Shown here: positions 994 to 25,900 of the stretch, one piece after another
Position numbering within the stretch: the stretch's first letter is position 1
Layout of the letters: each line of letters opens with the position of its first letter
Source of the DNA: the human T2T-CHM13v2.0 reference genome, Homo sapiens
Assembly: GCF_009914755.1 (NCBI RefSeq)
Contig: NC_060925.1
DNA length: 64,000 nucleotides
Reading direction: 5' to 3' (one strand)
Translations under genes and position numbers: made by a program
Notes under the pieces: generated by a model
Database searches by the model: none
Seen by the model: the letters and a program-made list of their open reading frames with translations, nothing else
What the model was told of the DNA's origin: nothing

Positions 994-1300
<307 letters not shown>

Positions 1301-2295
1301 TAATTAAAAGTTTAATAGGATTTAGCTTCAGGTCTTTGAAGATTGGTTTTTCTCTTTACTTAAGTAAATATTTCAGATTTGGTCTTTTTATTAGGAAACT
1401 TGTTGAAAAAAATTTTCATCCTATCAAATGATATCTTAAAACTGTGATAAACATTAATTGTGGAGTAATGTACATAAACTATGTGTTGACATACAAATTA
1501 TTTATAGTTCTTTACCATATATTACATTTTTATTTATATATTAATATTTATTTATATGTTGCTTATATGATGTGTTATATCCACACAGATCTATTTTTCT
1601 AGAGACAATGCCAATTCTAAATTATTTTCATATTTTGCCATCACAATATATACAAATGTATACACATGTACATACCTATTTTCTATTCATCATAATCCAG
1701 TTGTAATTATATCTCGGATTTTTTATTTGGGGTGAGCTTTTGCTTCCTTGTTTTATGATTCTTTGTTCATTCTAAATTTTCTTCACTGAAAGTACATTAT
1801 GTTTACAGTCAGAAAAATGATAGTATAAAAAACTTACCCAGGCAGTATCTTAGCTGAACTAGCAGGGGCAGACACGGCTCAGCTTTCTGCTAAAAGATTT
1901 CATGACAGGCAAAGAAAAGAAAGGAGAACGGAATTGAATAGAGATTTAAAATCTGTACTCTTATCCCAACCTACGTAAATCTTAGGCATGAGAGGACTGC
2001 AGTATAAAGCTACTCAGATCCTCTACCTTGATTTTTGTGTTGTTCTGTATTGTTATCTTCTTGGAGACACTTCAAAAGAGTTTACACTTGATTTGACTCC
2101 AAAAATGTTATAGTGTCTTCTTTAACAATGATGTTATTAAATACTTTTGCATTCTGGGTTACATATAGTTCTCTGTTTCTTAATCACTAACGACAAGTGG
2201 TAATGAGTTAAATGAATAAAATGCATCAATGACATCATTGAAATATAAGCTGTATATTCTTTAATTCAGGATATTTATTTGTTTTTTTCTCCCAA

Positions 2296-2493
2296 GAGAA
2301 ATTTGTAGATATGCAGAAATAAAACAAGGACAATTATATGACCAAGATAAATATAAACCAACTTTACCAGTTCACAAGAAAAAAAAACTGTTCTATTACT
2401 CCTGTGAATATAGCTTTGTATCTCCTTCAAATCCCCTATAGACTCACGTAACATGCACAGAGAAAGAATGGGTATCAACAGTGAAGTGTCTTA
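2296..2493 (+). pseudogene. Orphan CFHR1/2/5-type SCR1 pseudo-exon (relic of a CFHR paralog)
   Basis: Translates EICRYAEIKQGQLYDQDKYNPTLPVHKKKKLFYYSCEYSFVSPSNPL*THVTCTEKEWVSTVKCL. About 71% nt identical to exon 2 by hand count. TGG>TAG at 2439-2441; acceptor CAG>CAA; donor A|gtaagt intact; intron homology to 14901-15070 continues to ~2660. Confidence 0.92.
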
Positions 2494-2696
2494 GTAAGTA
2501 AATGCCCTGATCATTATCTGCATAAATCATTCGGTGAGTAGAGAGGGATGCCTCAAAAGGGATCTGTGTCTTGACAGGGGCAAGGTCTAAAAGAGCCTGA
2601 AGAGATGACAGATGTAGCCCTTATATTATTTGGGAGCATTTTATGAAAATCAAGTGAGAAGGAAAGACGTAAAGCTTTGGGGACTATCTATTCCCC

Positions 2697-3688
2697 AAAT
2701 ATAATATTTCTATTCATAGAAATATTTGAATTATTTCTAAAATGGACAAAAGCCTTGATACTTGATACCTATTTTCTAATATGTATTTTTGTCAATATGA
2801 AAATAAGTATTTCCTAGGAAAATCAAGGAAGAATTAAGTAGAGAGCAATACCATGTTCTTGGGCTAGAATACTCAACAGGATAAATAAATAAATTTTTCT
2901 CAAATTGTACTATAGGCTTAACATAATTACTTATTAAAATTTCAAGAGAATTCTTTGTAAATATAGATCATTTCATACTAAATTTATATTAAAATGCACA
3001 GGAGTTAGAATGGCTGAAACATTTTTTTAAAATAATAAAGTTGAAAGGATCACACAAATCAAATTTGAGGCCTCAAAATATAGCTACCATATTAAAAACA
3101 GTATAGTATTGATGGAGGGATAGACATAAATCAATAGAACAGATACAGAATCCAGAAAAGGTCATATAATTGTCCTTGTTTTATTTCTGCATATCCACAA
3201 ATTTCTCTTGGGAGAAAAAACAAATAAATATAATATTTCTATTCATAGAAATATTTGTATTATTTCTAAAATGGACAAAAGCCTTGATAGTTGATACCTA
3301 TTTTCTAATATGTATTTTTGTCAATATGAAAAGAAGTATTCCCTAGGAAAATCAAGGAAGAATTAAATAGAGAGCAATACCATGTTCTTGGGCTAGAATA
3401 CTCAACAGGATAAATAAATAAATTTTTCTCAAATTGTACTATAGGCTTAACATAATTACTTATTAAAATTTCAACAGAATTCTTTGTAAATATAGATCAT
3501 TCCATACTAAATTTATATTAAAATGCACAGGAGTTAGAATGGCTGAAACATTTTTTTTAAAATAATAAAGTTGAAAGGATCACAAAAATCAAATTTGAGG
3601 CCTCAAAATATAGCTACCATATTAGAAACAATATAGTATTGATGGAGGGATAGACATAAATCAATAGAACAGATACAGAATCCAGAAA
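2697..3688 (+). repeat. Tandem duplication (2697-3158 and 3226-3688) with an inverted templated insert at 3160-3231
   Basis: The copies differ by ~10 substitutions + 1 indel. The insert is the reverse complement of 2271-2343. Confidence 0.95.
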
Positions 3689-3758
3689 TAGACCCACACA
3701 AATATGCTCAAGTAACTTTTAACAAAGATGCACAAATAATTCAATACAGAAAAGATCC

Positions 3759-4016
3759 TTTTTTTTTTTTTTTTAGTTCAGGGCTACCTGTGCAGGTTTG
3801 TTACATAGGTAAACTTGTTTCATGGGAGTTAGTTTTACAGAGTATTCTGTCACCCAGGTATTCAGCCTGGTAGCCATTAGTTATTTTTCCTATTCCTTTC
3901 CCTCTTCCCACCCTTCACCGTCCATTAGGCCCCAGTGTGTGTTGTTCCCCTCTATGTGTTCATGTTTTCTCATGATTGAGCTCATACTTAGAAGTGAGAA
4001 TGTGTGGCATGTGGTT
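3759..4016 (-). mobile_element. L1PA (old, PA13-16-like) 3' tip
   Basis: Poly-T then gtgcaggtttgttacataggtaaac; degenerate TSD agaaaagatcctt/agaaaagtttctt. Confidence 0.8.
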
Positions 4017-4762
4017 GAGAAAAGTTTCTTTTCAACAAATTGTGTTGGGGACTAGCACTTTCTTAGCCAAAAAATTAATTTTGATTTAATCTCACATATT
4101 TTACAAAACCTAACTCCAAATGGTTCCTATATCTAAATGCATAATGTAAAACAATCAAACTTGTAGAGGAAGAGAAAATCTTTGTGACCTGGGGTTTGAT
4201 GGAATTGTTCTTAAACAGGACACCTAAAGGATGACCCATAAAAGAGTGAAATAATAATAATACTTTATCAACATTAAACACTTTTTATCCATGAAAGACA
4301 TTCTATGAGAGTGAAAAGATAAGCTACTTATTAGCAAAAAATATTTGCAAATAACATATCTGACAGAGGACTTATACATGGAATATATAAAGAATGCTCT
4401 AAACACAGGTAAAACAATCCAATCAATAAAGGTGCCAAAGCCTTGAACAGATCTAACAAAAAAGATATTCAGATGGAAAATAAACATGTGAAAAGTTATT
4501 CAATGTCATTAACCATTAGGGAATACACATTAAAACCACAATGAGATTTACTATGTATCTAATAAAATGCTTTAAAAAAATTAAATGAAACACATTGGTA
4601 ATAGTAAGTGCAAGTGAAAATGCAATACAATGGATCTCTCATACATTGCTTGTGGAAATGTAAAATGTCATAGCCACTATGGAAAACAGACAATTTCTTA
4701 TAGAGTTCAATAGCACTTTTCATAAAACCCAGTAATCTCACCCCTGACTGTTTACCATAGGG

Positions 4763-4966
4763 CAGGAGATGGCAAACTATATCTTAGGAACTAGCTATCT
4801 ATTTTCTTAATAAAGATGTATTGGATGTGAGCCACACCTTTTTATTTATGTATTGTCTATCATTATTTTGGCTCTATAACTACAAAGTTAGGTAGTTGTG
4901 GCAGAGGCCATATGGTTCACAACCTTAAAATACTAAACATATGACCCTTCGAGAACAAGTTTGCTG
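4763..4966 (+). mobile_element. MER58A-like hAT-Charlie DNA transposon
   Basis: caggagatggcaaacta...tatttatgtattgtctat...aagtttgctg resembles the MER58 consensus. Confidence 0.75.
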
Positions 4967-5939
4967 TTCAAGTAAAACATTGCACAAAATTGTCCATCAT
5001 AGCTTTATGTGTAATAGCCAAAAAGTAGAAGCAACTCAAATGTCCTCAGATGAGCGAAAGAATAAACAAACATGTTACATCCATACAATGGAGTACTTCA
5101 CAGCAATTAAAAGAAATGAATTACTTATAATACAACAGCTTGGCTACATTTCAAGGACATTACCCTGTGTGAAAAATATCCAAATCAAAAAGTTGACTTA
5201 CTGTATAATCCAATTTATATAACACTCAAAATGACTAAATTACAGTTATGTAGAACATACTAGTGATGACTAGCAATGAGGGGTGGGGGAATGTGGGGAC
5301 CATAAAAGGACAGCATACGGGAGTTTTCTGGAGGTGATAGAATAGTTCTGTATACGACTGAGTAGTTCTACATATGACTGATTGTGGTGATGGTTACATG
5401 AGTGCATACATGTTGCAAAATTAATATACCACACAAACACAAACGCAAGTTCATGGGAGAGACCATGAAATTCAGTAAGGTTGGTAGCTGAGTTAGTAGT
5501 AGAGCACTAATGTCAATTTCCTGGTCTCAATTATTGTACTATAGATATAAGAGATGCAGGAAGTTATAGTTATTGGAGGAAACTGGGTAAAGGGTACATG
5601 GGCATTCTCTGTACTATTTTTATGACTTATGAATCTAAGATTATTTCAAAACAAAAATTATTTGGATTATATAGGCTGGGATGTTTTACTTTTATAGCAC
5701 TTTTGGGGATGAGAATTTTCAATATTCAAGAGTTATAACCAATTTCAGCAATTTTTCTTTGAGATACTTAAATCTATCTCAAATTTTATCAGTAATAACT
5801 TCTACAAGCCAGTTTCATATGTATTTGAATGCTATAATTTGCCTTTTAACCCTTTCATATTTTTTGTAACAACAAACAGTTTCAGACTTAATTTACTTTC
5901 CCTGCACTAAACCTGGAATCCACAAAAAAAAGAGGTCCC

Positions 5940-6493
5940 AGTTTCCTAGATTTATAATGCTGTGTAAGAAACTTATTGGCATAAAACAGCAATCATTTTA
6001 TTATACTTAAGGATACTGTTAGGAATTGACGCAGGGCACTGATGTGATGACTTATAACTGTTCCACAATATTTGAGCCTCAGGTGAAAAGATTTAAATGG
6101 GTTAGGACTCAAATAACTGAGATTTGGAATCTGCAAATGTCACTCACCTGTATGACACCTGGGCTATTGCCTGGGCCAACTGGGACTATCAACCAGAAGA
6201 TTTACATATGGCTTCTGCATACAGATTGAACTTCTTGCCAAATGGCAAAAGGCTTCCAAGATAGTGTCAGAGAGATAGTCTTCCAAAATATAAACCCATA
6301 ACTCTCTAATATCTAGCAGAGTCACTACCACTGTATTGTATCAACAAAAGCATGCCACTAAAAAGTACAGATTTTCAAAATGAGGGAAATGTGATTCCAA
6401 ATCTTGATAGGATCATGGCAAAATCACATGGCAGAAGAACAAGTGAGATGAGACACAGTGGAGTGAGCATCTTTCAAAATAAAATTGGCCACA
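5940..6493 (-). mobile_element. MLT1-type MaLR LTR (degenerate)
   Basis: tgctgtgtaagaaac...gggactatcaaccagaag...catctttcaaaataaaattggccaca pattern. Confidence 0.6.
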
Positions 6494-6829
6494 AAATTGA
6501 AGACAAAGTTATTTTCTAAACTGCCCTTTTATTTCTTATCAAGTATAGTTTCCTTCTCCTTTTATTTGTTGCTAATGTTTGCAGGAGGGCATAATCTCCT
6601 GAAATTACTCAGAACAAGAAACAAACAAAAAAGGGCAATCTAAGTTTCTGAATTAGGAGAAATATTCAGCAAATAAAAAGGAGAATAATTGTTGAGTACT
6701 GGGCTTCAAAAAAAATAGACAAGAGAAGATAGTGTTAATTCAACTAAAAATCGGCACTAGCTCTGTGAAAATTAACTCTGTGCTTACAAATAAATAACAT
6801 CCCCTGGATTCAGACAAACCAATGTTTAA

Positions 6830-7960
6830 AGGTCACAGAGATTAGAAGAAGCCAACAAAAGACTGAGATGGTGAAGCCTTTGAGACAGAAGAGAAACCAG
6901 GAGAATGTGGTGTTCCATAGACCATGTGAAGCAGGTATTTCCAAATGGAAGGGGAAAGTCATGAAATTTTTCTGAGTATTCAGTTTTGACCAATGGATTT
7001 GATTAGATTGAAGAAGGCATTGGTGACTGTTACAAGAGGGGTTTAAGCGTAGTGTTGGGAATGAAAAAATGAATTAAAGTAGAGATTGTAGATAACATTG
7101 GAGTCATCGTATTATAAAATGAGAAGTGAATTAGATTACTAGAAAGAGATTTGGGTTCTATGAACAATTTTTGAGCTTTTGTTGTTGCTCTTCATGATGA
7201 AAGATGTTTGGTATGTTTGCATATTGGTGGAAATAATTTGGAAAATGGAGAAATTAATGATACAGGTGAGAAGGAATAATTGAAAGAGCAAAATCCTTGC
7301 ACAGAAAAGATGGGATCAAATCTGGTAGAGACCATAACAAGATAGGAGTAAAGATCAACATCCAGTGAAGCAGGAGACAATGCAGAAAAGGATGCGTGTG
7401 AACAGCAGGTAGTTTTCTTCTGATTGATTCTATATCTAGATGAAAAAATAAATGAAGTCATTAGCAAAGCACAAAGTGAGGATTGGTGGTTAAGGAGGGA
7501 GATAATGAAAACAGGAGAGGGGAAAAGCAGTGTGGAAATTATTTAGGACCGTGTTCATTAATTTAAAGCAAGGCAAGTCAGCACAGTTGCCTTTGTTTTT
7601 CTTGTAGACACACTCTGCTGCTTCAATTCAGGCACAGGGCAGGTAGAGAATTTATTTGCAAAGGATTGAGGTTTTCTAAGACTTGGATTACAGATAGAAA
7701 GGAACGAATGGGCAGGAGAGTGTGTGCAAGGGACTGACTTACAGTGATGAGCCATGGAATCTAATTTAGATGTGGTGGGAAGAGAGAAAATGAAGGGAAG
7801 AGAATAGTGAAAAAGTGTCAGGGTCATTGAATGTTTGGAACAAATTTAGTAGAGTAAGTGAGCTAAAAAGATTGTTGAAATGGTCTAGAGTGTGATGCTT
7901 AATATTTAGATACTTTAGGTAGTGTAGTAATTGGAAATGACAAGGTTTAGATAGACTAGA
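6830..7960 (-). mobile_element. L2 fragment
   Basis: Purine-rich; aaaccaggagaatgtggtgtt and cattggtgact motifs typical of L2. Confidence 0.6.
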
Positions 7961-8527
7961 ATCAATAGTGGAGACTACTAATAGCTCACAGGGACTTCTC
8001 TGGTTTCTTGATTGGACATAGCTATGTGCATTCCCATTGACTTCTGAACCACCATAAGTAAGTTTCCTCTTAGTGAGATCATTAGGCTGTTTCTGTAAAT
8101 TTCCCCATTAAATGTTAAATTTCTCTCAGGCTGGGCACTTTGTTGCTTGCTTCAGCTAGTATCCTCTAGTCTTCTCTGATTGTTTCCCACTGTAATCTCT
8201 TTGTATTCAATAGGATCCTCGGGCATGGACCTTTCCAAGCTATAAAGTCACTCTTCTCCAGCAGGGGAGCAGAGCTTCCAGTCCACATAGCCTGCCTGCC
8301 CATCCAGGGTTCAACTTCTGAGCCACGGAATTGGGCTGCGAGACAGAGGTGGATGAAAGCATCCGCTCTCTTTTACTGAATTTTATGGAGACTTTCTGGA
8401 AAAAATATTTCCCAACATTATGCTGTTTGGCCAATTTCCAGAGACAACCAATGGTTACTTTTAAATTTTTATCCAGTTGTATTGCTGCCTTTTGGTTGGG
8501 AGTGAATATACCAAGACCCTCACATAG

Positions 8528-8925
<398 letters not shown>

Positions 8926-9236
8926 AGCAAAAATAATTCTTGATTAGACCTTTTATAGTTTATGAAATATTAAAACTGTTAAGAAGGTACCTAATTCTTA
9001 GTGCCAGTTTTAAAAGGGAATTTACAACTACAAAAGTGATATTGTTGTATTAAGATGAGGACTGATGACTTGCACTTGCTTGCCTTTTGAAACAGCTGAA
9101 CCCTTGGCAAGAAAAAAAAAAAAACCCAGGGGGCCAGCGGTGGGGAGCTTCCTCTCTCCTCTAAACAGTCCATTTCTGATTGTTCCAAACTCAGAGACTC
9201 GGTGACTACAACAAGGAAATTGAACAGCAGTTACTT

Positions 9237-9420
9237 TGCTTAAATAAATATTACATAACGAGCTGAGAATATTATTGTGAAGACACTGATTAGATACTAT
9301 TTGCTTATTTCACACAACCCTCCATGAACTTTGATGTTTTCCACAAAGGGCTTTACTAAACTAGCTTCCCCTTAGTACATTGAAATTCAAAGTCATGCTT
9401 GTAACTGTTAATGAAAGCAG
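9237..9420 (+). promoter_or_regulatory. Putative CFHR5 proximal promoter with hepatocyte-type motifs
   Basis: TAAATAAATA (9241, FOX-like); TTACATAA (9251-9258, C/EBP/PAR-bZIP); TATTTGC (9298, FOXA-like); TGAACTTTG (9325-9333, reverse CAAAGTTCA, HNF4-like); all just upstream of exon 1. The TSS cannot be determined from sequence. Confidence 0.55.
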
Positions 9421-9482
9421 ATTTAAAGCAACACCACCATCACTGGAGTATTTTTAGTTATACACGATTGAGACTACCAAGC

Positions 9483-9540
9483 ATGTTGCTCTTATTCAGT
9501 GTAATCCTAATCTCATGGGTATCCACTGTTGGGGGAGAAG
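9483..9540 (+). CDS. CFHR5: CFHR5 exon 1 coding part, signal peptide MLLLFSVILISWVSTVGGE(G)
   Basis: agcATG at 9483, hydrophobic leader, donor AAG|gtaagt at 9541. Confidence 0.97.
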
Positions 9541-11070
9541 GTAAGTTGAAAACAGATCCGAATATTTTAGTTCCTTTTCAAATGTATTTATTGATTGTGT
9601 GTGTGTATGCATACAAATATTTTTAAATGAATAAATAGCTGAGGATAATTTGAAGGGGTATCACAATATTCATCTATTTTCTGGAAATATTTTCCAACAT
9701 GCAATTAGCAGGAAAATCGAATGAAATTAATTCTCTCCGTTCTCTAGTTTGCTAAGGGTAAATGGTCACCAAATAGATAATGTAAAGAGAAATCAAAGGA
9801 GAGAAAATCTGCTATAATAAAGATGATAAGGTGAAATATTAGTGTAATTCTGCATAAACTCTGCAATGCCACTGACTAGAAAAATCAACCCCAAAAGATT
9901 TGGCCACCTTCATTATGTTTTGAGAATTTTATTTTCATAGATTTGATAATTTACATTTTAAATGTTATTAAAATGAAGGAATTCTCATTTCAGCCTAATT
10001 ACCATTCAACAGGGAAATATATTTTAATGAAACAATAGAAAATATTATTTTTATATATAAACCAGTGAACTGCCAAAAAATTGTTTCTTCTGAGCTCTTC
10101 CACAAATTTCAAAAGTGAAATAATATATCACTTCTTTATTAATACTATAAACTGATTCTTATAACATTATAAACTATCCCATTTTATTTCATGTGGAAAT
10201 TAAAGCCACTATATCAAAAGGATTGCAAACAAAATCTCTAACAAGGTCTAGGATACTGATTAAACTATGTGTGTACGTGAAGTTTCAATCATTGTGCTAT
10301 ATACTCTTTGATTTCCAGAAAGTTTTTATTTTACTGCTTTACTGCTTTCTAATGTTTACAGATCTTTAAATTTTTTGAACACTTTCTTCTCAGTCCTGAC
10401 ATAAGAGAAAAATATGAACCATAAAATGCTTTCTTTTTAAGATATGCCCTTACAAATGTTGCAAAACATTATTTCTATGGGCCTAAAATTCATTTTATTT
10501 TGTTTTCACTTTTAGTACTGAGCTATAATCACAAGAGTGCGATTGCATGAGTGTATTTGATTTTTCTTAAGTCTGTGTTTATGATATTTATTAAGTGGCT
10601 TAAACATCTGTTACAAATGGCATTACACAAGGATTTCTAAAGGGGGGTGGAAGCAGAGGAAGATAAGTGAAAATTATGAGGATAATATGTAGAATTTTGA
10701 CAATTCCTAACCCCACAAAACTTTCAAGCTTCAGTCCAGTCCCAGGATAAACTTTAGTGAAATTCTATTAAAAGTTGTCTAGGTGTTAAATGACCTGTAA
10801 GTGTGCATTACACTTTTGTTTTGGTGTCTATTTAGAAACTGGCCAAACAGCAGAAATAACAGACGAAAGCAACACTTTTGTACAAATAGAAAACTGCATG
10901 CTTCCAGTAGCAAAACATGAATCAAGCAATATATTGTGCTTCATGCTGTAGCAAAGAAGCTGGAAAGAATATGACAACGCCACCCACCCCTCACTACTAC
11001 TTAGAGTGTCCTAAAAGAAAAGCAAAATGTAAATAGGCAAATAAATTGCAAGGTTTTATATATAGGTAAT

Positions 11071-11074
<4 letters not shown>

Positions 11075-11112
<38 letters not shown>
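11075..11112. repeat. (TG)19 microsatellite
   Basis: Read directly. Confidence 0.95.
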
Positions 11113-11114
<2 letters not shown>

Positions 11115-11115
<1 letters not shown>

Positions 11116-12400
11116 ACTCATACATCACTTAATGATAGGAAAACGTTCTGAGAAGTGTGTCTATAGGCAATTTCGTCCTCCTGCAAACATCATAGAGTGT
11201 ACTTACACAAACCTAGATTGTATAGCCTACTACCTAACTAAGCTATACGGCCTGTCACTCCTAGACTGCAAACCTGTACAGCATGTTACTGTACTGAATA
11301 CTGTGGGCAACTGTAGCACAAATGTAAGAATGTGTTTACCTAAACATATAAAAGGTACAATAAAAATACAATATAAAATATTAAGAATGGCAGACTTGTA
11401 TAGGGCTCTTACCGTCAATAGGGTTTGCAGGACTGAAAGTTGTTCTGGGTAAGTCACTGAGTGAGTGGTGTGCAAATATGAAGGCTTAGCACATTACCAT
11501 ACACTACTGTAAACTTCATGAACACTGAATACTTGAGCTAGGTAAATTTATTTTATTTATATATTTATTTCAATATTTTGGGGGGAGCAGGTGGTTTTTG
11601 GTTACATGGATAAGTTCTTTAGTGCTAATTACTGAGCTTCTGGTGCACCCAGGATAGACTAAATTTATTTTTAAAACTTTTCTTCAATAATAAATTAATT
11701 TATGATAAGCTTTCTACTTTATCAACTGAAAATCTTTTAACTTGTAACTCTTTTGTTTTAGCTTAAAACACACCTTGTATAGATGTACAAAATATTTTTT
11801 CTTTCTATCCTTATTCTGTAAGATTTTTATCTTTTAAATTATTTATTTATTTACCTTCTACACCTTTTTGTTAAAAGCAGACACAAACACACACATTAAC
11901 CTCGGCCTACGGAGGGTCAGGATCATCAGTATCACTGTCTTCCTCCTCACTCTTGTTCCACTAGAAAGTCTTTAGGGCAGTAACATGCATGGAGCTGTCC
12001 TCTCCTATGATAACAAAGGCTTCTTCTGGAATAGTTCCTGAAGGACCCGCCTGAGGATGTTTTACAGTTATTTTTTTTTAATAAGTAGAAGAAGTGAACT
12101 ATAAAATAATGATAACAACTATAGTACATTAAATACATTAACCAGTACCATGGTCATTTATTATCATTATCAAGTATTGTGTACTATACATAATTGTGTG
12201 TGCTATTGTTTATATGACTGGCAATGCTGTAAGTTTGTTTATACCAGCACTGCCACAAACATGTGAGTAATACATTGGATTATGATGTTGTGGTGGTCAT
12301 CAGTTGATAGGAATTTTTCAGCTACATTATAATCTTATGGGACCACTGTGATATAAGTGATCAGTCATTGACCAAAACGTCATTATGTGGTAAATGACTG
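11115..12400 (+). mobile_element. Tigger3b-like (MER7/Golem) DNA transposon, with a nested ~90-bp L1PB 3' tip at ~11555-11650
   Basis: Degenerate TIRs cactcatacatcacttaatga / tcattatgtggtaaatgactg, TA on both sides, internal gtgtacttacacaaacctagat motif. Confidence 0.85.
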
Positions 12401-12415
12401 TATGTCTGTATATAT

Positions 12416-12418
<3 letters not shown>

Positions 12419-12448
<30 letters not shown>
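12419..12448. repeat. (TG)15 microsatellite
   Basis: Read directly. Confidence 0.95.
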
Positions 12449-12451
<3 letters not shown>

Positions 12452-13453
12452 CCCAGAAGAAATATATTCACAGTATTCTATCAGAATGTCGAGACAAGGA
12501 AAATTATTTTCTGCTTTTGGAGTGGGTTGTTGTGTAACGGCAGGCTTGCCAAAGGACGATAACACTCCTAGCACCATTGCGGATGTGCACAATGGTTATA
12601 CGATGAATGTTGTAGAGCAAGTTCTAAAGGATAGGTAGAATACAACTGGATGGTGAGAACTAAGTTATTCTGGATAGCGAAGAATATGTAAGTACATATG
12701 CATGAAAATCAAGTACTATAATTTTGCAATTTTCAAAAAGTAAATGATATTTAAAAGGAGTTATGATAGGTTAATACTATCAAGACACGAGGGAGTCTTT
12801 CCCTCAGTATCTTCTCCAAAACTATCTAATGTCAATTTTTAAACAGTTAGGTAATAAATTTAAGGTTTCACAAGGTTAAATACCACAAGAATTATTTCAA
12901 ATATTGTGCAACATTAAATATTACTTCTAGGTAGTTAAAAAAGAGAAATTTCCCTTGATTTGTCAGCTGAATTTCTGCATGCTTTTTCTAAATAAGGTGA
13001 AAAACAAAACAATTTCTTATGCAGCAATGCTATATTCAGAAAATATCTTGAGCTAAAAAATGAGCACACTATATTGAGGAAATATCTCGAGCTAAAACAG
13101 CATTCAAAGATAAAGTACATCAAATCCATAGAATGTACAATATCAAGAGTAAACCCTAATGTAAACTATGGACTTTAATGACAATAATACTGATAGTGAA
13201 GGGGGCTATTCATGTGGCAGGGAAGAGGAAGTGGTATATAGGAAATCTCTGTACCTTCCACTCAATTTTACAGTAAAAAAACTGTAAATAAAAAATTAAG
13301 TCTAATAAAAAATATGTGTATATATAAATATATATATACACAAGAAAAAATAGAGTCAAAACATGAATATTTCACCCATTTTCTACATTGTTTTACCATA
13401 TCTTGCACCATAGTGCATATGGATGTATGTGTGAGTGTCTATATAAATATATC

Positions 13454-13750
13454 CAGTAGTATCCTCAGTATCATTAGTATCCTTAAGGAATTGTTCCAGG
13501 ACTCTTTTCACCCCCAGCAGATACCAAAATCCACAGATGCTCAAGTCTCTAAGAGAGAATGGCGTAGTATTTGCATATAACATATGCACATCCTCTCATA
13601 TAATTTAAATCATCTCTAGATTATTTATAATATCTAACATAATGTAAATACTATATAAATAATTGTTATATTGTATTTTTAATTGCATTGTTTTTATTGT
13701 TTTATTATCTTTTTATTGTTTTTTCTTTTTCAGATATTTTGGACTTGCAG
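13454..13750 (+). mobile_element. MER2-like (TcMar-Tigger) element
   Basis: gataccaaaatccacagatgctcaagtc...gtagtatttgcatataac...tttaaatcatctctagatta. Confidence 0.75.
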
Positions 13751-14209
13751 TATAATAAACATTTATGTATACAGCATTTACCAGAATTTAGCTCTAATTT
13801 TATCTCGGTTGAGTTGTTCTTAGTGATTTTCTTATACTCTTTAAATTATTTCCACTGAAACCACATAAACTTTGTAACCAGAAAGTAATCAGAATATTAA
13901 TAAACAAAAAATCAAATTACCTACCCAACATTTTTACTGCACCAGAAAAAAAAATAGGACAGATTTTTCTGGTGGAAATACCTATGACAGTTGATGAGAA
14001 TAGAAAAAGAAATAAATCTGAGAGCTGAGAACAATCCTATCACTCCTCTACTGTACACTACATAGACCAGGGAGATTTGCTACTCTTACAGTCTGCCTTC
14101 ATTCTTAAATTGTTGTGTGAGGATATTGTTCTTGAAGACATTGCAGAAGAGTTCATATTTTATATCATTCCAAAATATAAATTTTATATTCATTAACAAT
14201 GACCTCGTC

Positions 14210-14508
14210 GGTCCGGCATGGTGGTTCATGCCTGTAATCCCGGCAGTTTGGGAGGCCGAGGCGCATGGATCACCTGAGGTCAGGAGTTTGACACCAGTCT
14301 GGCCAATATGGTGAAACCTTGTCTCTACCAAAAATACAAAAAATTAGTCAGGTGTGGTGGCAGGCACCTGTAATCTCAGGTACTCAGGAGGCTGAGGCAG
14401 GAGAATCACTTGAACCCAGTGGAGGCTGCAGTGAGCCAAGATTTGCGTGATTGTACTTCAGCCTGGGCAACAAGAGTAAAACCTGAAACTCCCTCTCAAA
14501 AAAAAAAA
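14210..14508 (+). mobile_element. AluS (Sq-like)
   Basis: Alu body with caacaagag and an A tail, ~200 bp upstream of exon 2. Confidence 0.92.
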
Positions 14509-14677
14509 AGATCTCCTCAAATACTCTTCTATTCTTATTTAGGGATCTTTCTTCATTCCAAATTAGTACACTGGAAAGCATTTAAGCTAAAGGCATTTAA
14601 GCTGAATGAAAAACAAAACTATAAATGAGATGACTAAAATATAATCTAGTGATTCATCGATGTAGCTCTTTATTTAA

Positions 14678-14905
<228 letters not shown>

Positions 14906-15781
14906 TAAATGCCCTGTTCATTAAATGGATGTCATTCAGTGAATAGAGAAGGATGTGCCGGACAAGATCATAAGGTCTTGATAATCACAAGGGCAATGAC
15001 CAGAGGAGCTGGAAAAATGGGAGATGTAGTCCTCCTATTTTGAGACCCCTCCTATGAGAATCAATGAAGAATAAATATATCAACTGTCTTGCATTACCTG
15101 GAAATGCCCTACATGTTGAAATACATTAATTTTTTTAAACTGATGATTAATATATTTGACTGCTAATAGTTCTTTACTAATATTCATTTGGTAGCAGCCT
15201 GATCATAGTTTTCCTTTAAAATAAGTCATTTTATATAGATATTCTGTTTTGAATTTACCGTTCTCTTGCATATTGCGAGGTAAGGTTTGGTATTTTAACT
15301 TTTATATTTTCAATAAATCATTTATTTGGTCCTTCAAAGTGTAGCTATATTAATCCTCCAATAAATGTAGAGACCAGACTCCAATGATAACAGGTGCATT
15401 AAAAAAGAAAAACAATGGGAGAGAGAATAGATGAGGCAACAAAGGAGATAGTAATGGTCTTTCTCCTTTTGTAAGAAACATTTATGAGAATTGCGAGAAA
15501 TATTTATATGAAGATATTGTTTTGGTGCTAGAAGAGTTTATAAACACAAGATTTTTATTATAAAAACCATACAGCAACAACATGAAATATTAACTTTCGT
15601 ATATATATATATAGGAACAAAAAATATATTTCATCATTTATACGGTAGCATGACCCAAATTCTTTTGAAAATATTTACACATGATGTCAGTTTTCAAAGT
15701 TTTCCTTTCTTAATGAAATATTTTTAAATGCACTTTTTTTGCTACTTCCATCTTGTACATTAATCAATTTTTGTTCCTTAG

Positions 15782-15958
15782 GAATGTGTTCCTTTCCTTT
15801 TGTGAAAAATGGTCATTCTGAATCTTCAGGACTAATACATCTGGAAGGTGATACTGTACAAATTATTTGCAACACAGGATACAGCCTTCAAAACAATGAG
15901 AAAAACATTTCGTGTGTAGAACGGGGCTGGTCCACTCCTCCCATATGCAGCTTCACTA
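15782..15958 (+). CDS. CFHR5: CFHR5 exon 3, SCR2
   Basis: ttccttag|GA; [10 protein letters not shown]...[11 protein letters not shown]; donor A|gtaagc. Confidence 0.98.
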
Positions 15959-17034
15959 GTAAGCAAAATACCACTCTCTCAGTTTTGCTAATTATTTAAA
16001 GAAATAAATCTATAGTTTATAGATTAAATATAGGTTAAATATAGGTTTCACCACTACTTCTATCATTATTTATTTGATTTTCGGTTCCAATTGTGTCTAA
16101 GTAGATGTGCAATAACATAGTTTGCCTACCTATATAAATCAAATGTACGTAATAAGAAGAAATATTAGAGAAGAATACACTTTGAAGATAATCCATTAAT
16201 GTAACAACTGTTTGTTGTTTATATTGTCAGGTTAGTTGACAATAAATGGTTACAAAACTGAGGTATTAAAGTGCAAATTAGTCCAATTACAGTTAAAATG
16301 TCTTATAAGGAAGTTTTTAATATTTATCTTTATTTAAATTAATATGCTTGAGTCAATAAATCATTTTCTAAGTTGTAAAAAGTCCATACTTCTGAGAGGT
16401 ATGTGTATTTGTGAGCGGCTTAGAATTTGGAAAACGATTCTTTTGGAAGCCTGTGGTATAAATGATGGCACCTCACAGTCCTGTGTGAACTCTTGTAATT
16501 CTTCATCTTTATAGCTCTTCAGTAATTGTTCTTTGCCCAGCCCAATGCGATTCCATCCTATGCTTACACACCTCAGTATTCAACCAAACACTCAAGGAAA
16601 CTTCCATAGTCTTTCTCTTCATACCACTTTCTCTCTGCTACTATGTCCAGTAACTTCTGGCCACCATAGTCACCAAGACTGACCTTACTAGTCTCAACTA
16701 AAGAAGACCACTGAGTTCTTCCTGGGTTCTCCCTCCTTGCACAGTCTAGAAAAGGCTTCCCAATAAACAGCTGGGCTTTCATTGACTTTGCTTTATTATT
16801 TTGAAGTATTGAGGGTTTTTTCCTTTTTTCAGTCATCACAGTTCTGTACTGGGTGATTTCCAGCATTCTGAAAATAAATTTTGTAAAATTTTCTAAATTT
16901 TTTTTCAGTGGGATGATATGTTGATAGCAGCTACTCCATCCTATCAAGAAATAGAATCTGTGGTAGGTTTTTCAAAAGATGTTATGTTATCAAATATTAT
17001 TCCACATCTTCAACTCTTAATTTAAACCTCTAGA

Positions 17035-17194
17035 GCCAGGCACAGTGATGTGCACCTGTAGTCCCCGCCACTGGCAAGGCTGAAATAGGAGTTCAAAGCT
17101 TCAGTGAGTTATGACTGCACCAGTGCACTCCAACCCAGGCAACAAAGTGAGACCCTTCCCCACTAGAAAAACAAAACAAAGTAAAGCAAAATGA
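17035..17194 (+). mobile_element. Free Alu right-arm monomer (FRAM-like)
   Basis: Single monomer; perfect 16-bp TSD AATTTAAACCTCTAGA at 17019-17034 and 17195-17210. Confidence 0.8.
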
Positions 17195-18189
17195 AATTTA
17201 AACCTCTAGAAATGGAGTCTTTTTAAAACAGCTGGAACTGCGATAGTTTTTCAGTAAACAGTTACGTCATGGTCTCTTTCAATTACAAGGGGTTAAAACA
17301 TTATTAACATTTGCAAAAAAAAAAAATAACAAATGTTACTAACACTAGAAAATTCCAGTGATTGAAAAGGGTTCAAAATGTATAGGCTTCAGTTATGGTA
17401 TAAATATTTCCATGCTTTCTCTTATCCATACCTGTTCATGTCATGAACAAGCTCTCTTCATTTTGAGAGATGATGGCTATTGTCAGACCAACAATTATAT
17501 TTTAGAAGCTTGACAAATTAAGTTTGGCCAGCGTAACCCATACAAGCTGGCTCTGTGTACAGTCTGTAAGATTTTGTTAGTCTTTGAACAATTCGGTTGC
17601 TTTGTGACACAAAAAATATCCCAGGCTTAACTCATGTTTCCACTGCCCCAGAACTAGAATCAGCCATACCTCCAATAAGTCCTGGTTCCATTTAGTGGGC
17701 AATGACATTTAGAAACTAAGTTGTCAAAATAAACTTGTTTCAAAATTTAGCACATTTTATTTAATCAGAAAAAGCACATATCTTATTGTTCAAGTTCTCA
17801 GAATATTGCTGCCTTTCCCTTTCTGCCCGTTGCTTATTCCAAAAGCACAAGACAACATATTGAGGTTATCAGAGTAGATGGACAGATGGACCAAGTCAGA
17901 GTCTCCAAAGTGAAAGAATTCAGCAGAACACTCTGTGCCTAAGGTTGAATGGTAGCTCACGAACACTGTGGAAAGTTAATAAAGTTTCAGGGCAACTAGA
18001 CTCCTAATGATAGCGGCACAGTCTGTTTATTCATGTAAGGTAACATCTTGCAAGTTATGGTAATCCATGTTGCAGGGATTAGTATGGCGTCATCTCTGGG
18101 GGCCGTTATTCCATTTACAACACCATGCAATAACCATATATGAATAAAGCAGCTGGAAAACCCTACATTGGCCAAGATCGATTATTTTC

Positions 18190-21100
18190 TTTTTATATAT
18201 ATATATATACTTTAAGTTCTAGGGTACATGCGCACAACATGCAGGTTTGTTACATAGGTATACATGTGTCATATTGGTTTGCTGCACCCATTAACTCGTG
18301 ATTTACATTATGTATTTTGCCTAATGCTACCCCTCCCCTACCTCCCACCCTACAACAGGCCCCAGTGTGTGATGTTCCCCACCCTGTGTCCAAGTGTTCC
18401 CATTGTTCAATTCCCACCTGTGAGTGAGAACATGCAGTGTTTGGTTTTCTGTCCTTGTGATAGTTTTCTCAGAATGATGGTTTCCAGGTTCATCCATGAC
18501 CCTGCAAAGGACAAGAACTCATCCTTTTTTATGGCTGCATAGTATTCCATGGTGTATGTGTGCCGCATTTTCTTAATCCAGTCTATCACTTACGGACATT
18601 TGGGCTAGTTCCAGGTCTTTGCTATTGTGAATACTGCCACAATAAACCTATGTGTGCATGTATCTTTATAGCAGCATGATTTATAATCTTATGGGTATAT
18701 ACCCAGTAATGAGATCACTGGGTCAAATGGTATTTCTAGTTCTAGATCCTTGAGGAATTGCCACACTGTCTACCACAATGGTTGAACTAGTTTACACTCC
18801 CAACAACAGTGTAAAAGAGTTCCTATTTCTCCACATCCTCTCTAGAATCTGTTGTTCCCTGACTTTTTAATGATCGCCATTCTAACTGGTGTGAGATGGT
18901 ATCTCATTGTGGTTTTGATTTGCATTTCTCTGATGACCAGTGATGATCAGCATTTTTTCATGTGTCTGTTGGCTGAATAAATGTCTTCTTTTAAGAAGTG
19001 TCTGTTCATATCCTTTGCCCACTTTTTGATGGGGTTTTTTCTTGTAGATTTGTTTAAGTTCTTTGTAGATTCTGGCTATCAGCCCTTTATCAGATGGGTA
19101 GATTGCAAAGATTTTCTCCCATTCTGTACGTTGCCTGTTCACTCTGATGGTAGTTTCTTTTGCTGTGCAGAAGCTCTTTAGTTTAATTAGATTCCATTTG
19201 TCTATTTTGGCTTTTGTTGCCATTGCTTTTTGTGTTTTAGTCATGAAGTACTTGCCCATGCCTTTGTCCTGAATGCTAAGGCCTAGGTTTTCTTCTAGGG
19301 TTTTTATGGTTTTTAGGTCTAACATTTAAGTCTTTAATCCATCTTGAATTAATTTTTGTATAAGGTGTAAGTAAGGGATCCAGTTTCAGCTTTCTACATA
19401 TGGCCAGGCAGTTTTCCCAGCACCATTTATTAAATAGGGAATCCTTTCCCCATTTCTTGTTTTTCTCAGGTTTGTCAAAGATCAAATGGTTGTAGATGTG
19501 TGGTGTTATTTCTGAGGCCTCTGTTCTGTTCCATTGGTCTATATCTCTGTTTTGGTACCAGTACCATGCTGTTTTGGTTACTTGTAGTATAGCCTTGTAG
19601 TATAGTTTGAAGTTAGGTAGCCTGATGCCTCCAGCTTTGTTCTTTTTGCTTAGGATTGTCTTGGCAATGCAGCCCCTTTTTTGATTCCATATGAACTTTA
19701 AAGTAGTTTTGTCCTATTCTGTGAAGAAAGTTAGTGGTAACTTGATGCGGATGGCATTGACTCTATAAATTACCTTGGGCAGTATGGCCATTTTCACGAT
19801 ATTGATTCTTCCTCTCCATGAGCATGGAAAGTTCTTCCATTTGTTTGTGTCCTCTTTTATTTCGCTGAGCAGTGGTTTGTAGTTCTCCTTGAAGAGATTC
19901 TTCACATCCCTTGTAAATAGGATTCCTAGGTATTTTATTCTCTTTGAAGTAATTGAGAAGGGGAGTTCACTCATGATTTGGCTCTCTGTCTGTCTGTTAT
20001 TGGTGTATAGGAATGCTTGTGATTTTTGCACATTGATTTTGTATCCTGAGACTTTGCTGAAGTTGCTTATCAGCTTAAGGAGATTTTGGGCTGAGACGAT
20101 GGGGTTTTCTAAATATACAATCATGTCATCTGCAAACAGCAACAATTTGACTTCCTCTTTTCCTAATTGAATACCCTTGATTTCTTTCTCCTGCCTGATT
20201 GCCCTGGCCAGAACTTCCAACACTATGTTGAATAGGAGTGGTAAGAGAGGGCATCCCTGTCTTGTGCTGATTTTCAAAGGGAATGCTTCCAGTTTTTGCC
20301 CATTCAGTATGATATTGGCTGTGGGTTTGTCATGAGTAGCTCTTATTATTTTGCCATATGTTCCATCAATACCTAGTTTACTGAGAGTTTTTAGCATGAA
20401 GCGCTGTTGAATTTTGTCAAAGGCCTTTTCTGCATCTATTGAGATAATCACGTGTTTTTGTCATTGGTTCTGTTTATGTGATGGATTACATTTATTAGTT
20501 TGTATATGTTGAACCAGCCTTGCATCCCAAGGATGAAGCCAACTTGATTGTGGTGGATAAGCTTTTTGATGTGCTGCTGGATTTGGTTTGCCAGTATTTT
20601 ATTGAGGATTTTCACATCGATGTTCATCAGGGATATGGGTCTAAAATTCTCTTTTTTTTGTTGTGTCTCTGCCAGTCTTTGGTACCAGGATGATGCTGGC
20701 CTCATAAAATGAGTTAGGGAGTATTCACTCTTTTTCTATTGATTGGAATAGTTTCAGAAGGAATGTGACCAGCTCCTCTTTGAACCTCTGGTAGAATTCT
20801 GCTGTGAATCTGTCTGGTCCTGAACTTTTTTGGGTGGTAGGCAATTAATTATTGCCTCAATTTCAGAGCCTGTTATTGGTCTATTCAGAGATTCAACTTC
20901 TTCTTGGTTTAGTCTTGGGAGGATGTATGTGTCGAGGAATTTATCCATTTCTTCTAGATTTTCTAGTTTATTTGCGTAGAGGTGTTTATAGTATTCTCTG
21001 ATGGTAGTTTGTATTTCTGTGGGATCGGTGGTGATATCCCCTTTATCATTTTTTATTGCATCTGCTTGATTCATCTCTCTTTTCTTCTTTATTAGTCTTG

Positions 21101-24100: not shown

Positions 24101-24486
24101 AGTGTCCCGATTTTCCAGGTACAGTCTGTCACGGGTTTCCTTGGCTAGGAAAGGGAAATCCCCCAACCCCTTGCACTTCTATTTTTTCTAAGACCACTGG
24201 AAAAGTGCAGTATTTGTGTGTGAGTGTCCCGATTTTCCAGGTACAGTCTGTCAGGGCCTCCCTTGGCTAGGAAAGGAAAATCCCCCAACCCCTTGCACTT
24301 CCCAGGGAGGCAATGCCCTGCTTTGCTTTGGCTCCCCCTCCATGGACTGCACCCGCTGTCCAACCAGTCCCAGTGAGATGAACCAGATACCTCAGTTGGA
24401 AATGTAGAAATCACCCATCTTCTGCATCGATCACACTGGGAGCTGCAGACCAGAGCTGTTCCTATTCGGCCATCTTGGAACAGAAT
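18190..24486 (-). mobile_element. Full-length (~6.3 kb) inactive L1PA (about L1PA6), antisense in CFHR5 intron 3
   Basis: 5' end ...TTCCAAGATGGCCGAATAGGAACAGCTC. ORF1 (~23313-22296) and ORF2 (~22232-18407) are broken by stops and frameshifts; ORF2 ATG>ATA. EN/RT fragments appear in the ORF track (FADDMIVY). 17-bp TSD CAAGATC(G/A)ATTATTTTC at 18173-18189 and 24487-24503. Confidence 0.96.
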
Positions 24487-25083: not shown

Positions 25084-25466
<383 letters not shown>

Positions 25467-25900
25467 TAAATATGTTGCAATTTTATTTTGTTACTTGAAG
25501 GAATTTTTTGTGATTTAGTGAGAAAAAAATATTCCTATTCTGTATTATAAACAAATAATGTTATTAAACTTATTTATTAAACAATAAAATTAGAACTAAT
25601 ATTGCTAATTAAACAAATTAAATAATTTACTGTATGAGTAACTTCACAGGACATTCTTACTACAATCCTGAAGAGATTCTCATAGAAAATGTTACCTTGC
25701 TATATACAGTTTCCCAATTTGCCTGAGGGGTCTTAGATATATTTATTGGGTATAAATAATTAGTCTATATGTTTTCTCGAAGGCAAGAATATATTTTATA
25801 CTCTGTATATGAAGCCCCTTGCATCTTATTTTTATATAGCACACATTAAATTTGTTTCTGCAATGAAAATTCACATATGTTCATTTAATTTTATTTTTAG

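What the first reader, a model, noticed from the sequence alone, without database searches (positions are those of the whole stretch)
2296..2493. Fossil SCR1 exon of a lost CFHR paralog that keeps the dimerisation motif
Seen: 7 kb upstream of CFHR5 lies a 198-nt copy of the SCR1 exon. All four Cys, the terminal Trp, the FYYSCEY motif and the donor (A|gtaagt) are intact. There is no frameshift (one 3-nt insertion), one nonsense change (TGG>TAG, 2439) and a dead acceptor (CAG>CAA, although a phase-compatible GAG| lies 3 nt downstream). Downstream intron homology (2494-~2660 vs 14901-~15070) shows a genomic duplication, not a retrocopy. Established: the Tyr/Ser/Tyr of FYYSCEY mediate FHR-1/2/5 dimerisation. 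Inference: ~29% divergence with only one stop suggests long purifying selection as a separate gene. The 5' half (Y.EIK.G.LY...PV) looks closer to factor H CCP6, so this may be an early-branching extra dimerising FHR that is still intact in other mammals.
Basis: partly seen in the sequence, partly recalled or inferred. Interest (0 to 1): 0.8.

Follow-up and report, generated by a model that had tools for sequence, protein, structure and literature searches.

The report
Orphan decayed CFHR SCR1 pseudo-exon
About 7 kb upstream of human CFHR5 lies a real but dead, stand-alone copy of the exon that encodes the dimerising first domain of FHR-1/2/5; it is very old and has decayed at the neutral rate, so it is a genomic fossil, not a hidden gene.

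Summary
Window 2296-2493 is a genomic (intron-flanked) copy of the CFHR1/2/5-type SCR1 exon: 70-71% nt identity to CFHR5/CFHR2 exon 2, one TAG, acceptor CAG>CAA, donor GTAAGT, four Cys, the Cys3-Cys4 Trp and FYYSCEY intact.

- It is an early branch. It lies inside the FHR-1/2/5-type clade (99.7/100) but outside CFHR2+CFHR5. The "CCP6-like" 5' residues are retained ancestral states.
- "Long purifying selection" is not supported. The relic exon carries 31 lineage-specific changes against 9 in CFHR2/5, while the flanking introns give 31 against 33. Codon positions are flat at 11:8:12. It has lost 11 of 23 clade-conserved residues. One stop is what chance gives (P=0.52).
- No other SCR or signal-peptide relic lies in the 18-kb CFHR2-CFHR5 spacer.

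The relic is about three times older than the CFHR2/CFHR5 5' segmental duplication, and a 5.5-kb deletion removed it from the CFHR2-upstream copy. No intact counterpart turned up.

Verdict: an ordinary orphan pseudo-exon of modest evolutionary interest.

The parts
2296..2493 (+). Relic SCR1-type exon (198 nt), homologous to CFHR5 exon 2 (14706-14900) and CFHR2 exon 2
   Evidence: 70-71% nt identity, phase-1 frame kept, one 3-nt insertion
2439..2441 (+). TAG stop at the codon that is TGG (Trp of SFW) in CFHR2/5
2293..2295 (+). Former acceptor, CAA instead of CAG. AG dinucleotides at 2295-2296 (out of phase) and 2297-2298 (in phase) follow.
2494..2499 (+). Intact consensus donor GTAAGT
1643..2295 (+). 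Decayed homolog of the last ~650 nt of CFHR2/5 intron 1
   Evidence: E 4.5e-83 for the whole block; 426/616 gap-free identity, JC distance 0.40
2494..2788 (+). Decayed homolog of the first ~300 nt of CFHR2/5 intron 2. 2812-2943 and its young copy 3342-3472 match the same intron stretch weakly.
   Evidence: 196/277 gap-free identity, JC distance 0.37; the weak matches have E 0.002-0.011
1037..6583 (.). 5.5-kb stretch holding the relic. It is present in the CFHR5-upstream copy of the segmental duplication and deleted from the CFHR2-upstream copy. It contains old interspersed repeat sequence at about 4630-5660.
   Evidence: the other copy jumps from about 30 nt into the Alu to the equivalent of 6584; genome-wide 70-80% matches
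1007..1300 (-). Antisense Alu-like repeat. Its first ~30 nt are also kept in the CFHR2-upstream copy, so it predates that duplication.
   Evidence: The Alu identity rests on about 290-nt matches to many window copies and on recall of the Alu sequence.
3160..3231 (-). Young inverted copy of 2271-2343 (relic acceptor plus the first 48 exon nt), 71/73 identical
2697..3688 (+). Young tandem duplication (2697-3158 and 3226-3688, 452/463 identical) with the inverted piece at its joint

Best explanation
Window 2296-2493 is a non-functional, orphan pseudo-exon.

Origin. It is the only detectable remnant of an ancient partial genomic duplication. That duplication copied the exon for the FHR-1/2/5-type N-terminal SCR (the dimerisation domain) with at least ~650 nt of upstream and ~300 nt of downstream intron.

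Timing. The copy arose after this SCR1 type had split from the factor H CCP6 type and had already acquired FYYSCEY. It arose well before the segmental duplication that gave CFHR2 and CFHR5 their shared 5' modules. It then sat in the spacer upstream of the ancestral promoter. The CFHR5-upstream copy inherited it, and a 5.5-kb deletion removed it from the CFHR2-upstream copy.

Decay. Since its origin it has changed at the neutral rate, with no regard to codon position or to conserved residues. Today it has a stop codon, a damaged acceptor and no partner exons, so it encodes nothing.

Shown: homology, tree position, relative rates, loss of conserved residues, absence of other exons, the deletion in the other copy.

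Inferred: that it never, or only briefly, served in a gene; and an age of the order of 100 Myr.
For: 1. Homology of exon plus both introns: (1643-2788 against CFHR2, E 4.5e-83).

2. Position. The DNA tree joins the relic to CFHR2+CFHR5, opposite a 100/100 CCP6-type clade. The protein tree of 49 domains puts it in the FHR-1/2/5-type clade (99.7/100), basal to the CEY subclade (23.6/83). Sites shared by relic and CFHR2/5 against the CCP6 type number 38 in the exon and 35+21 in the introns.

3. Neutral rate.
- Exon: relic-specific 31 against CFHR2/5-specific 9 (binomial p=0.0007).
- Introns: 31 against 33 (p=0.9). Four other MAFFT settings give 37-40 against 37-39.
- Exon against intron contrast: Fisher p=0.004.
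- Relic exon 31/167 against intron 31/245 is not lower (p=0.12). The CFHR2/5 exon, 9/167 against 33/245, is lower (p=0.008).
- JC distance from relic to CFHR2 is 0.35 in the exon and 0.37-0.40 in the introns.

4. No sign of coding constraint.
- Codon positions 11:8:12; 9 synonymous and 22 non-synonymous changes.
- The relic keeps 12/23 clade-conserved columns against 24/39 variable columns (Fisher p=0.6). Real members keep 81-100%.
- Family-wide invariants are lost at five places: P>A, H>Q, G>K, G>E, P>S.
- Pfam Sushi (PF00084) no longer matches at E<=1, whereas CFHR5 SCR1 scores 2e-06.

5. Orphan status. tblastn of the whole CFHR5 protein against window -30000..9373 finds only the relic between the CFHR2 end and CFHR5 exon 1. 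Sensitive blastn finds no other CFHR2/5 gene homology in -8500..7600.

6. Age and history. The segmental-duplication copies differ by JC 0.11-0.14, and the relic introns differ from CFHR2 by 0.37-0.40. The CFHR2-upstream copy breaks about 30 nt into the shared Alu and resumes at the equivalent of 6584. No second relic exists in the genome.
Against: 1. Under uniform random substitution (40-42 changes), keeping all four Cys plus the Trp has P about 0.04. Keeping FYYSCEY has P 0.012-0.016, and keeping both has P 0.0005-0.001. This list of features was chosen after seeing the sequence, but the Cys/Trp set is canonical.

2. The branch dN/dS of the relic is 0.50. It is not distinguishable from 1 (LRT 2.2) or from the family background of 0.58 (LRT 0.07). 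dN/dS therefore cannot exclude a functional phase.

3. The exon has no frameshift, and its only indel is in frame, while the flanking intron alignments carry several gaps.

4. In the first 60 intron columns after the donor, the relic has 1 specific change against 5 for CFHR2/5.

5. Other exons of a former gene could have been lost by deletions. This spacer has clearly suffered deletions and duplications.

6. No RNA data and no other mammalian genome could be examined.
Confidence: 0.75

Rival explanations
1. First reader's reading. The exon is the last piece of a once-functional extra dimerising FHR gene. It was kept by purifying selection for a long time, died recently, and may still be intact in other mammals.
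For: - Retention of four Cys, Trp and FYYSCEY is unlikely under uniform neutral change (joint P 0.0005-0.001).
- Relic branch omega is 0.50.
- There is no frameshift, and the donor is perfect.
- The FHR-1/2/5-type SCR1 clade is broad, with 13 library domains in two subclades, so old paralogs are plausible.
Against: - The relic exon changes as fast as or faster than its introns, and 3.4 times faster than the CFHR2/5 exon.
- It has lost 11/23 clade-conserved and 5/14 family-conserved residues, no fewer than at variable columns.
- The codon-position spread is flat.
- At most one stop is expected in 52% of neutral runs.
- No partner exon lies within 18 kb.
- No library protein groups with the relic. 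Best identities are about 52%, the same as human CFHR2.
Confidence: 0.15
2. The similarity of the 3' half and the first ~57 intron nt (75-93% in 40-nt windows, against 50-70% elsewhere) reflects a later gene-conversion patch from a CFHR1/2/5 gene into an older relic. That patch would have refreshed FYYSCEY and three of the four Cys.
For: - Identity steps up at about 2390-2550 and spans the exon-intron boundary.
- The relic-CFHR2/5 distance is 37-43% in the 5' half and 19-22% in the 3' half.
Against: - Relic-specific changes are similar in the two halves: 17 of 87 aligned nt against 14 of 99 aligned nt. The difference lies in the stem shared with CFHR2/5 (13 against 25 sites).
- In the first 60 intron columns, CFHR2/5-specific changes are not depleted (5). 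A late conversion should have erased them.
Confidence: 0.05
3. The relic is used today, as a cryptic or poison exon of CFHR2-CFHR5 read-through or upstream-initiated transcripts, or as a regulatory element of CFHR5.
For: - Consensus donor GTAAGT, a pyrimidine tract, and AG at 2295-2296 and 2297-2298.
- It lies 4.5 kb upstream of the alternative first exon 6842-6934 (hub annotation).
Against: - The supplied RefSeq table has no transcript, exon, enhancer or silencer over 2296-2493.
- The sequence evolves at the neutral rate.
- The annotated alternative first exon lies downstream of the relic.
Confidence: 0.05

Closest known systems
Exon 2 (SCR1) of human CFHR2 and CFHR5, and FHR-1 SCR1 as in PDB 3zd2
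   Same: - Same exon phase, with length 198 nt against 195 nt.
- Homologous introns on both sides.
- FYYSCEY with the Tyr/Ser/Tyr dimer-interface residues, four Cys and the Trp.
- Member of the same clade (99.7/100).
(residue roles from the Figure 2 legend of PMC10099856)
   Different: - 29-30% nt and about 50% aa divergence.
- TAG stop and CAA at the acceptor.
- 11 of 23 clade-conserved residues lost.
- No exon 1, SCR2 or C-terminal exons nearby.
- Not annotated in the supplied RefSeq table.

Factor H CCP6 exon and its copies in CFHR4 and the pseudogene LOC100996886
   Same: - Homologous SCR type, with weak intron homology still visible.
- The relic keeps some states that CCP6-type domains have and CFHR2/5 lost (Y, EIK, .PV).

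   Different: - Only 52-56% nt identity.
- 38 exon sites join the relic to CFHR2/5 and 9 join it to the CCP6 type.
- The shared states are ancestral ones, found in nearly all of the 48 other domains.

Incomplete segmental duplications that built the CFHR cluster, as summarised in the review PMC10099856 (section 2 read in full), citing Cantsilieris 2018, which was not held
   Same: A partial copy holding few exons, lying in the CFH-CFHR tandem array.
   Different: - Much smaller (about 1.2 kb detectable).
- About three times older than the CFHR2/CFHR5 5' duplication.
- It left no working gene.

Membership tests
Sushi / SCR / CCP domain (Pfam PF00084) | Four Cys in the conserved spacing and a Trp between Cys3 and Cys4 | tested here: met
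   the relic aligns Cys for Cys and Trp for Trp with 48 family domains
Sushi / SCR / CCP domain (Pfam PF00084) | Significant match to the family profile | tested here: not met
   no PF00084 hit at E<=1 for the relic. CFHR5 SCR1 scores E 2e-06, 28.5 bits against a cut-off of 20.7.
Sushi / SCR / CCP domain (Pfam PF00084) | Other near-invariant scaffold residues (Pro after Cys1, His-Gly, Gly before Trp, Pro after Trp) | tested here: not met
   5 of 14 family-wide conserved columns are lost (P>A, H>Q, G>K, G>E, P>S)
FHR-1/2/5-type dimerising SCR1 | Falls in the FHR-1/2/5 SCR1 clade rather than the CCP6-type clade | tested here: met
   (99.7/100); (FHR-1 3zd2 E 6.5e-18 against CFH CCP6-8 E 7e-12)
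FHR-1/2/5-type dimerising SCR1 | Tyr34, Ser36 and Tyr39 of the dimer interface | tested here: met
   FYYSCEY is identical. Residue roles come from the Figure 2 legend of PMC10099856.
FHR-1/2/5-type dimerising SCR1 | A partner SCR2 exon. The dimer is head to tail, SCR1 against SCR2, according to the same figure legend. | tested here: not met
   no SCR2-like sequence between the CFHR2 end and CFHR5 exon 1
FHR-1/2/5-type dimerising SCR1 | Open frame and usable splice sites, so that a protein is made | tested here: not met
   TAG at 2439-2441 and acceptor CAA. Expression itself cannot be tested with these tools.
Processed pseudogene (retrocopy) | No intron sequence at the exon borders | tested here: not met
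   intron homology on both sides, so it is a genomic duplicate
Duplicated multi-exon pseudogene | Several exons of the parent gene in order | tested here: not met
   a single exon only

The most novel reading that the evidence does not exclude
The relic may be the human tombstone of a separate, very old FHR-1/2/5-type gene lineage. That lineage would have split off before the CEY-type SCR1 domains of mammals diversified. If so, an intact extra dimerising FHR descended from it survives in some other mammals, and the FYYSCEY dimer interface would be of the order of 100 Myr old rather than a primate novelty.
Probability: 0.1. Interest if true: 0.55.

Novelty: new member of a known kind. Interest (0 to 1): 0.22.

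Why it matters
Its practical weight is small. It encodes nothing and shows no constraint.

It has three uses.
- It is a neutral outgroup inside the locus. It shows that FYYSCEY and the FHR-1/2/5-type SCR1 already existed about three duplication-ages before CFHR2 and CFHR5 acquired their shared 5' ends. It also lets substitutions on the functional lineage be polarised: 9 changes, 8 of them non-synonymous.
- It documents the history of the CFHR2-CFHR5 spacer: a 5.5-kb deletion in the paralogous copy and a young duplication-inversion. This interval is lost or rearranged in disease-associated CFHR2-CFHR5 hybrid alleles, a point I give from recall.
- Its 70% similarity to exon 2 and its near-perfect 72-nt inverted partial copy are worth knowing when designing probes or reading alignments here.

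Tried and rejected
- The search for homologous proteins with the relic, longer proteins: 2 candidates, none scored. That database did not return even human CFHR proteins, so it says nothing about mammals.
- Cantsilieris et al. 2018 (PNAS), the main evolutionary study of the locus: not held under its DOI, PubMed id or PMC id. I could not check whether it or its supplements already mark this exon.
- Literature searches for a described pseudogene or exon remnant between CFHR2 and CFHR5 gave nothing relevant. The only CFHR pseudogene met was "the CFHR4 pseudogene" in a passage of PMC7211993. These searches cover open-access text only.
- dN/dS as a test. The branch model gave relic omega 0.50, background 0.58 and the known pseudogene branch 0.56, with LRTs of 2.2 and 0.07. 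It has no discriminating power in this fast-evolving family.
- Signal-peptide exon or promoter relic upstream: tblastn and word-7 blastn found none in -8500..2000. A 58-nt coding piece at about 65% identity could escape.
- An older local duplication, 2640-2790 against 2812-2943. Both match the same CFHR2/5 intron stretch weakly (E 0.002-0.011), but their direct alignment is poor (score 15). Left open.
- Chance similarity and retrocopy: rejected.
- Structure and complex prediction were not run. A fold of a dead 65-residue exon would not bear on the question.

Full report
**Observation.**
Window 2296-2493 reads, in the phase of CFHR5 exon 2, EICRYAEIKQGQLYDQDKYKPTLPVHKKKKLFYYSCEYSFVSPSNPL*THVTCTEKEWVSTVKCL. 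CFHR5 exon 2 reads [64 protein letters not shown].

- four Cys, the Trp between Cys3 and Cys4, and FYYSCEY;
- a single stop (TAG 2439-2441 where CFHR2/5 have TGG);
- one in-frame 3-nt insertion in an A-run;
- CAA where CFHR2/5 have the acceptor CAG, with AG at 2295-2296 (out of phase) and 2297-2298 (in phase);
- a consensus donor A|GTAAGT.

Identity from Cys1 to the last Leu is 130/186 to CFHR5 and 132/186 to CFHR2. The match is far beyond chance. In the whole genome the translated relic finds CFHR2 exon 2 (E 5e-14) and CFHR5 exon 2 (E 3e-13). Among solved structures it finds FHR-1 SCR1-2, 3zd2 (E 6.5e-18), ahead of factor H CCP6-8 (E 7e-12).

**It is a genomic duplicate of one exon with its intron flanks.**
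Relaxed blastn aligns 1643-2788 with CFHR2 intron 1/exon 2/intron 2 (window -19391..-18240; 62% over 1209 columns, E 4.5e-83). It aligns 1679-2131 and 2206-2660 with the CFHR5 counterparts, which are interrupted there by an Alu-like insert.

Nothing else of a CFHR gene lies nearby. tblastn of the full CFHR5 protein against window -30000..9373 finds all CFHR2 exons. Between the CFHR2 end (-8553) and CFHR5 exon 1 it finds only the relic. Word-7 blastn finds no further collinear homology in -8500..7600.

I also found no orphan SCR exon in two other stretches, using the CFHR5 protein at E<=0.01. These were window -49999..-24300, most of the CFHR4-CFHR2 spacer, and the 22 kb downstream of CFHR5. 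Such relics are therefore not littered through the locus.

**Where it sits in the family.**
The genome held here contains these homologous exons: CFHR2, CFHR5, factor H CCP6, two in CFHR4, and one in the pseudogene LOC100996886. No CFHR1- or CFHR3-type exon was found.

- The relic is 70-71% identical to CFHR2/5 and 52-56% to the CCP6-type exons.
- The ML nucleotide tree puts the relic (branch 0.42) next to CFHR2+CFHR5 (stem 0.02), opposite a 100/100 CCP6-type clade (stem 0.57).
- Site patterns say the same: 38 exon sites unite the relic with CFHR2/5, 9 unite it with the CCP6 type, and 31 are relic-specific.

The one exhaustive protein search returned 39 unnamed proteins that are evidently vertebrate FH/FHR proteins. 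I cut 43 CCP6/SCR1-type domains from them (42 distinct) and added the 7 human sequences. In the tree of these 49 domains, the FHR-1/2/5-type domains form a clade with 99.7/100 support. That clade has two subclades, one with ..YYSCEY.. and one with ..YY[ST]CDH... The relic sits at the base of the CEY subclade with weak to moderate support (23.6/83) and on a long branch.

No library protein groups specifically with the relic. The best domain identities, about 52%, equal that of human CFHR2.

**The "CCP6-like" 5' half.**
In the 5' half, 13 sites join the relic to CFHR2/5 and 6 join it to the CCP6 type. In the 3' half the counts are 25 and 3. Relic-specific changes are alike in the two halves, 17 and 14.

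They are retained ancestral states that human CFHR1/2/5 lost, not evidence for a CCP6 origin.

A late gene-conversion patch could also explain the higher identity of 2390-2550. It is not favoured, because CFHR2/5-specific changes are not depleted in the first 60 intron columns (5 there).

**Was it ever under selection?**
Four tests speak against a long functional life.

1. Relative rates with an internal control. In the exon, relic-specific against CFHR2/5-specific changes are 31:9 (binomial p=0.0007). In the flanking introns, polarised with the CCP6-type introns, they are 13:17 downstream and 18:16 upstream, 31:33 in all (p=0.9). Four other alignment settings give 37-40 against 37-39. The exon-intron contrast has Fisher p=0.004. 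The relic exon's rate (31/167) is not below the intron rate (31/245; p=0.12, in the direction of faster). The CFHR2/5 exon's rate (9/167) is below its intron rate (33/245; p=0.008). The JC distance from relic to CFHR2 is 0.35 in the exon and 0.37-0.40 in the introns.
2. The 31 polarised relic changes fall 11:8:12 on codon positions and are 9 synonymous and 22 non-synonymous. The exon has 38 synonymous and 148 non-synonymous sites.
3. The relic keeps 12 of 23 columns that are at least 90% conserved in the FHR-1/2/5-type clade. That is no better than its agreement with the majority at 39 variable columns (24; Fisher p=0.6). Fifteen real members keep 81-100% in a leave-one-out count. Of 14 columns conserved across the whole family it has lost five (P>A, H>Q, G>K, G>E, P>S). 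Pfam's Sushi profile no longer recognises it.
4. "Only one stop" carries no weight. With 40-42 random substitutions the mean is 1.6 stops, and at most one stop occurs in 52% of runs.

Some results point the other way and should be stated as fully.
- In the same simulation, keeping four Cys and the Trp has P about 0.04, keeping FYYSCEY P 0.012-0.016, and keeping both P 0.0005-0.001.
- The exon has no frameshift.
- The first 60 intron columns hold 1 relic-specific change against 5 for CFHR2/5.
- My codon branch model gave omega 0.50 for the relic. It is not separable from 1 (LRT 2.2) or from the background of 0.58 (LRT 0.07).

The list of retained features was drawn up after seeing the sequence, and test 3 shows that as many conserved residues were lost as kept. 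I read these points as leaving room for a short functional phase, not as evidence for a long one.

**History of the locus.**
The CFHR5-upstream sequence (window -8816..1036 and 6584..9540) is a copy of the CFHR2-upstream sequence (-40808..-33355, -33307..-32263, -26083..-24242). Gap-free identity is 87-90% (JC 0.11-0.14).

The 5.5 kb at 1037-6583 that holds the relic has no counterpart in the CFHR2-upstream copy. That copy keeps the poly-T and the first ~20 nt of the antisense Alu-like element that is whole at 1007-1300. It then jumps, through about 48 nt, to the equivalent of 6584. The 5.5 kb also contains old interspersed-repeat sequence with 70-80% matches genome-wide.

The simplest reading is that the relic was already in the ancestral unit and a deletion removed it from the CFHR2-upstream copy. 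No second relic exists in the genome.

The relic-to-CFHR2 intron distance is about three times the distance between the two duplication copies. The duplication postdates an Alu insertion. With usual primate and mammalian neutral rates (my own knowledge, not a tool result), the relic is of the order of 100 Myr old, with wide error. The breadth of the FHR-1/2/5-type clade in the unnamed library fits an old origin, but species are unknown.

A 2025 study of mouse FHR-B states that its N-terminal region differs significantly from that of human FHR-1/2/5 and suggests convergent evolution (PMC11813886; abstract and passages). That paper gives no support for a mouse counterpart.

**What it is and does.**
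It is a neutrally decaying orphan pseudo-exon, debris of an old partial duplication in a cluster built by incomplete duplications (review PMC10099856, section 2 read in full). It has a stop, a damaged acceptor and no SCR2 partner. The FHR-1 dimer is head to tail, SCR1 against SCR2, stabilised by Tyr34, Ser36 and Tyr39 (Figure 2 legend of the same review). The relic therefore cannot yield a dimerising protein. Whether transcripts ever splice into it could not be tested.

**Novelty.**
The supplied RefSeq table has no feature at 2296-2493. My open-access literature searches found no description. The key paper on the evolution of this locus, and its supplements, could not be read, and GENCODE could not be consulted.

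I rate it a new member of a known kind, of low to modest interest.

Noticed in passing
window 2697-3688 with 3160-3231 (- strand) and 2271-2343: A young complex rearrangement lies just downstream of the relic. 2697-3158 is repeated at 3226-3688 (452/463 identical). The joint holds an inverted copy of 2271-2343, which is the relic's acceptor region plus its first 48 exon nt (71/73 identical). Short microhomologies at the joints look like a replication template-switch event. The two 61-72-nt arms, about 820 nt apart, could pair in DNA or RNA.
   Followed up: partly
G000:C1, whole-genome searches with the relic and with CFHR5 SCR1: The assembly shows no CFHR1-type or CFHR3-type SCR1 exon. Only CFHR2 and CFHR5 (FHR-1/2/5 type) and CFH, CFHR4 (two) and LOC100996886 (CCP6 type) were found. 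This fits the common CFHR3-CFHR1 deletion being present in this haplotype.
   Followed up: partly
L010, G000:C1:196119345-196119530 (pseudogene LOC100996886): The CCP6-type exon of this annotated pseudogene carries TGG>TAG at the same Trp codon (SYW) that is TAG in the relic. This is probably a coincidence at a codon that is one transition away from a stop.
   Followed up: no
window -40808..-24242 against -8816..9540 (loci L019-L023 and the window): The CFHR2-upstream and CFHR5-upstream regions are copies of one segmental duplication that starts inside the last ~260 nt of the CFHR2 transcript. The copies differ by a 5.5-kb deletion in the CFHR2-upstream copy (it starts about 30 nt into a shared Alu-like element) and by 6.2 kb present only there (-32263..-26083).
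   Followed up: partly
CFHR2/CFHR5 exon 2 (window 14706-14900 and -18724..-18530): On the functional CFHR2/5 lineage, the 9 polarised exon changes since the split from the relic are 8 non-synonymous and 1 synonymous. The relic shows 9 synonymous changes over the same time. The functional exon is slow overall, yet almost all its changes alter the protein.
   Followed up: no
proteins P0004, P0006, P0009, P0010, P0012, P0018 (search of protein representatives): A second, well-separated subclade of FHR-1/2/5-type N-terminal SCRs in unnamed mammalian proteins reads ..FYY[ST]CDH[SKN][FY][VA]S.. instead of ..[11 protein letters not shown]... Whether these proteins dimerise like FHR-1 is unknown to me.
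   Followed up: no
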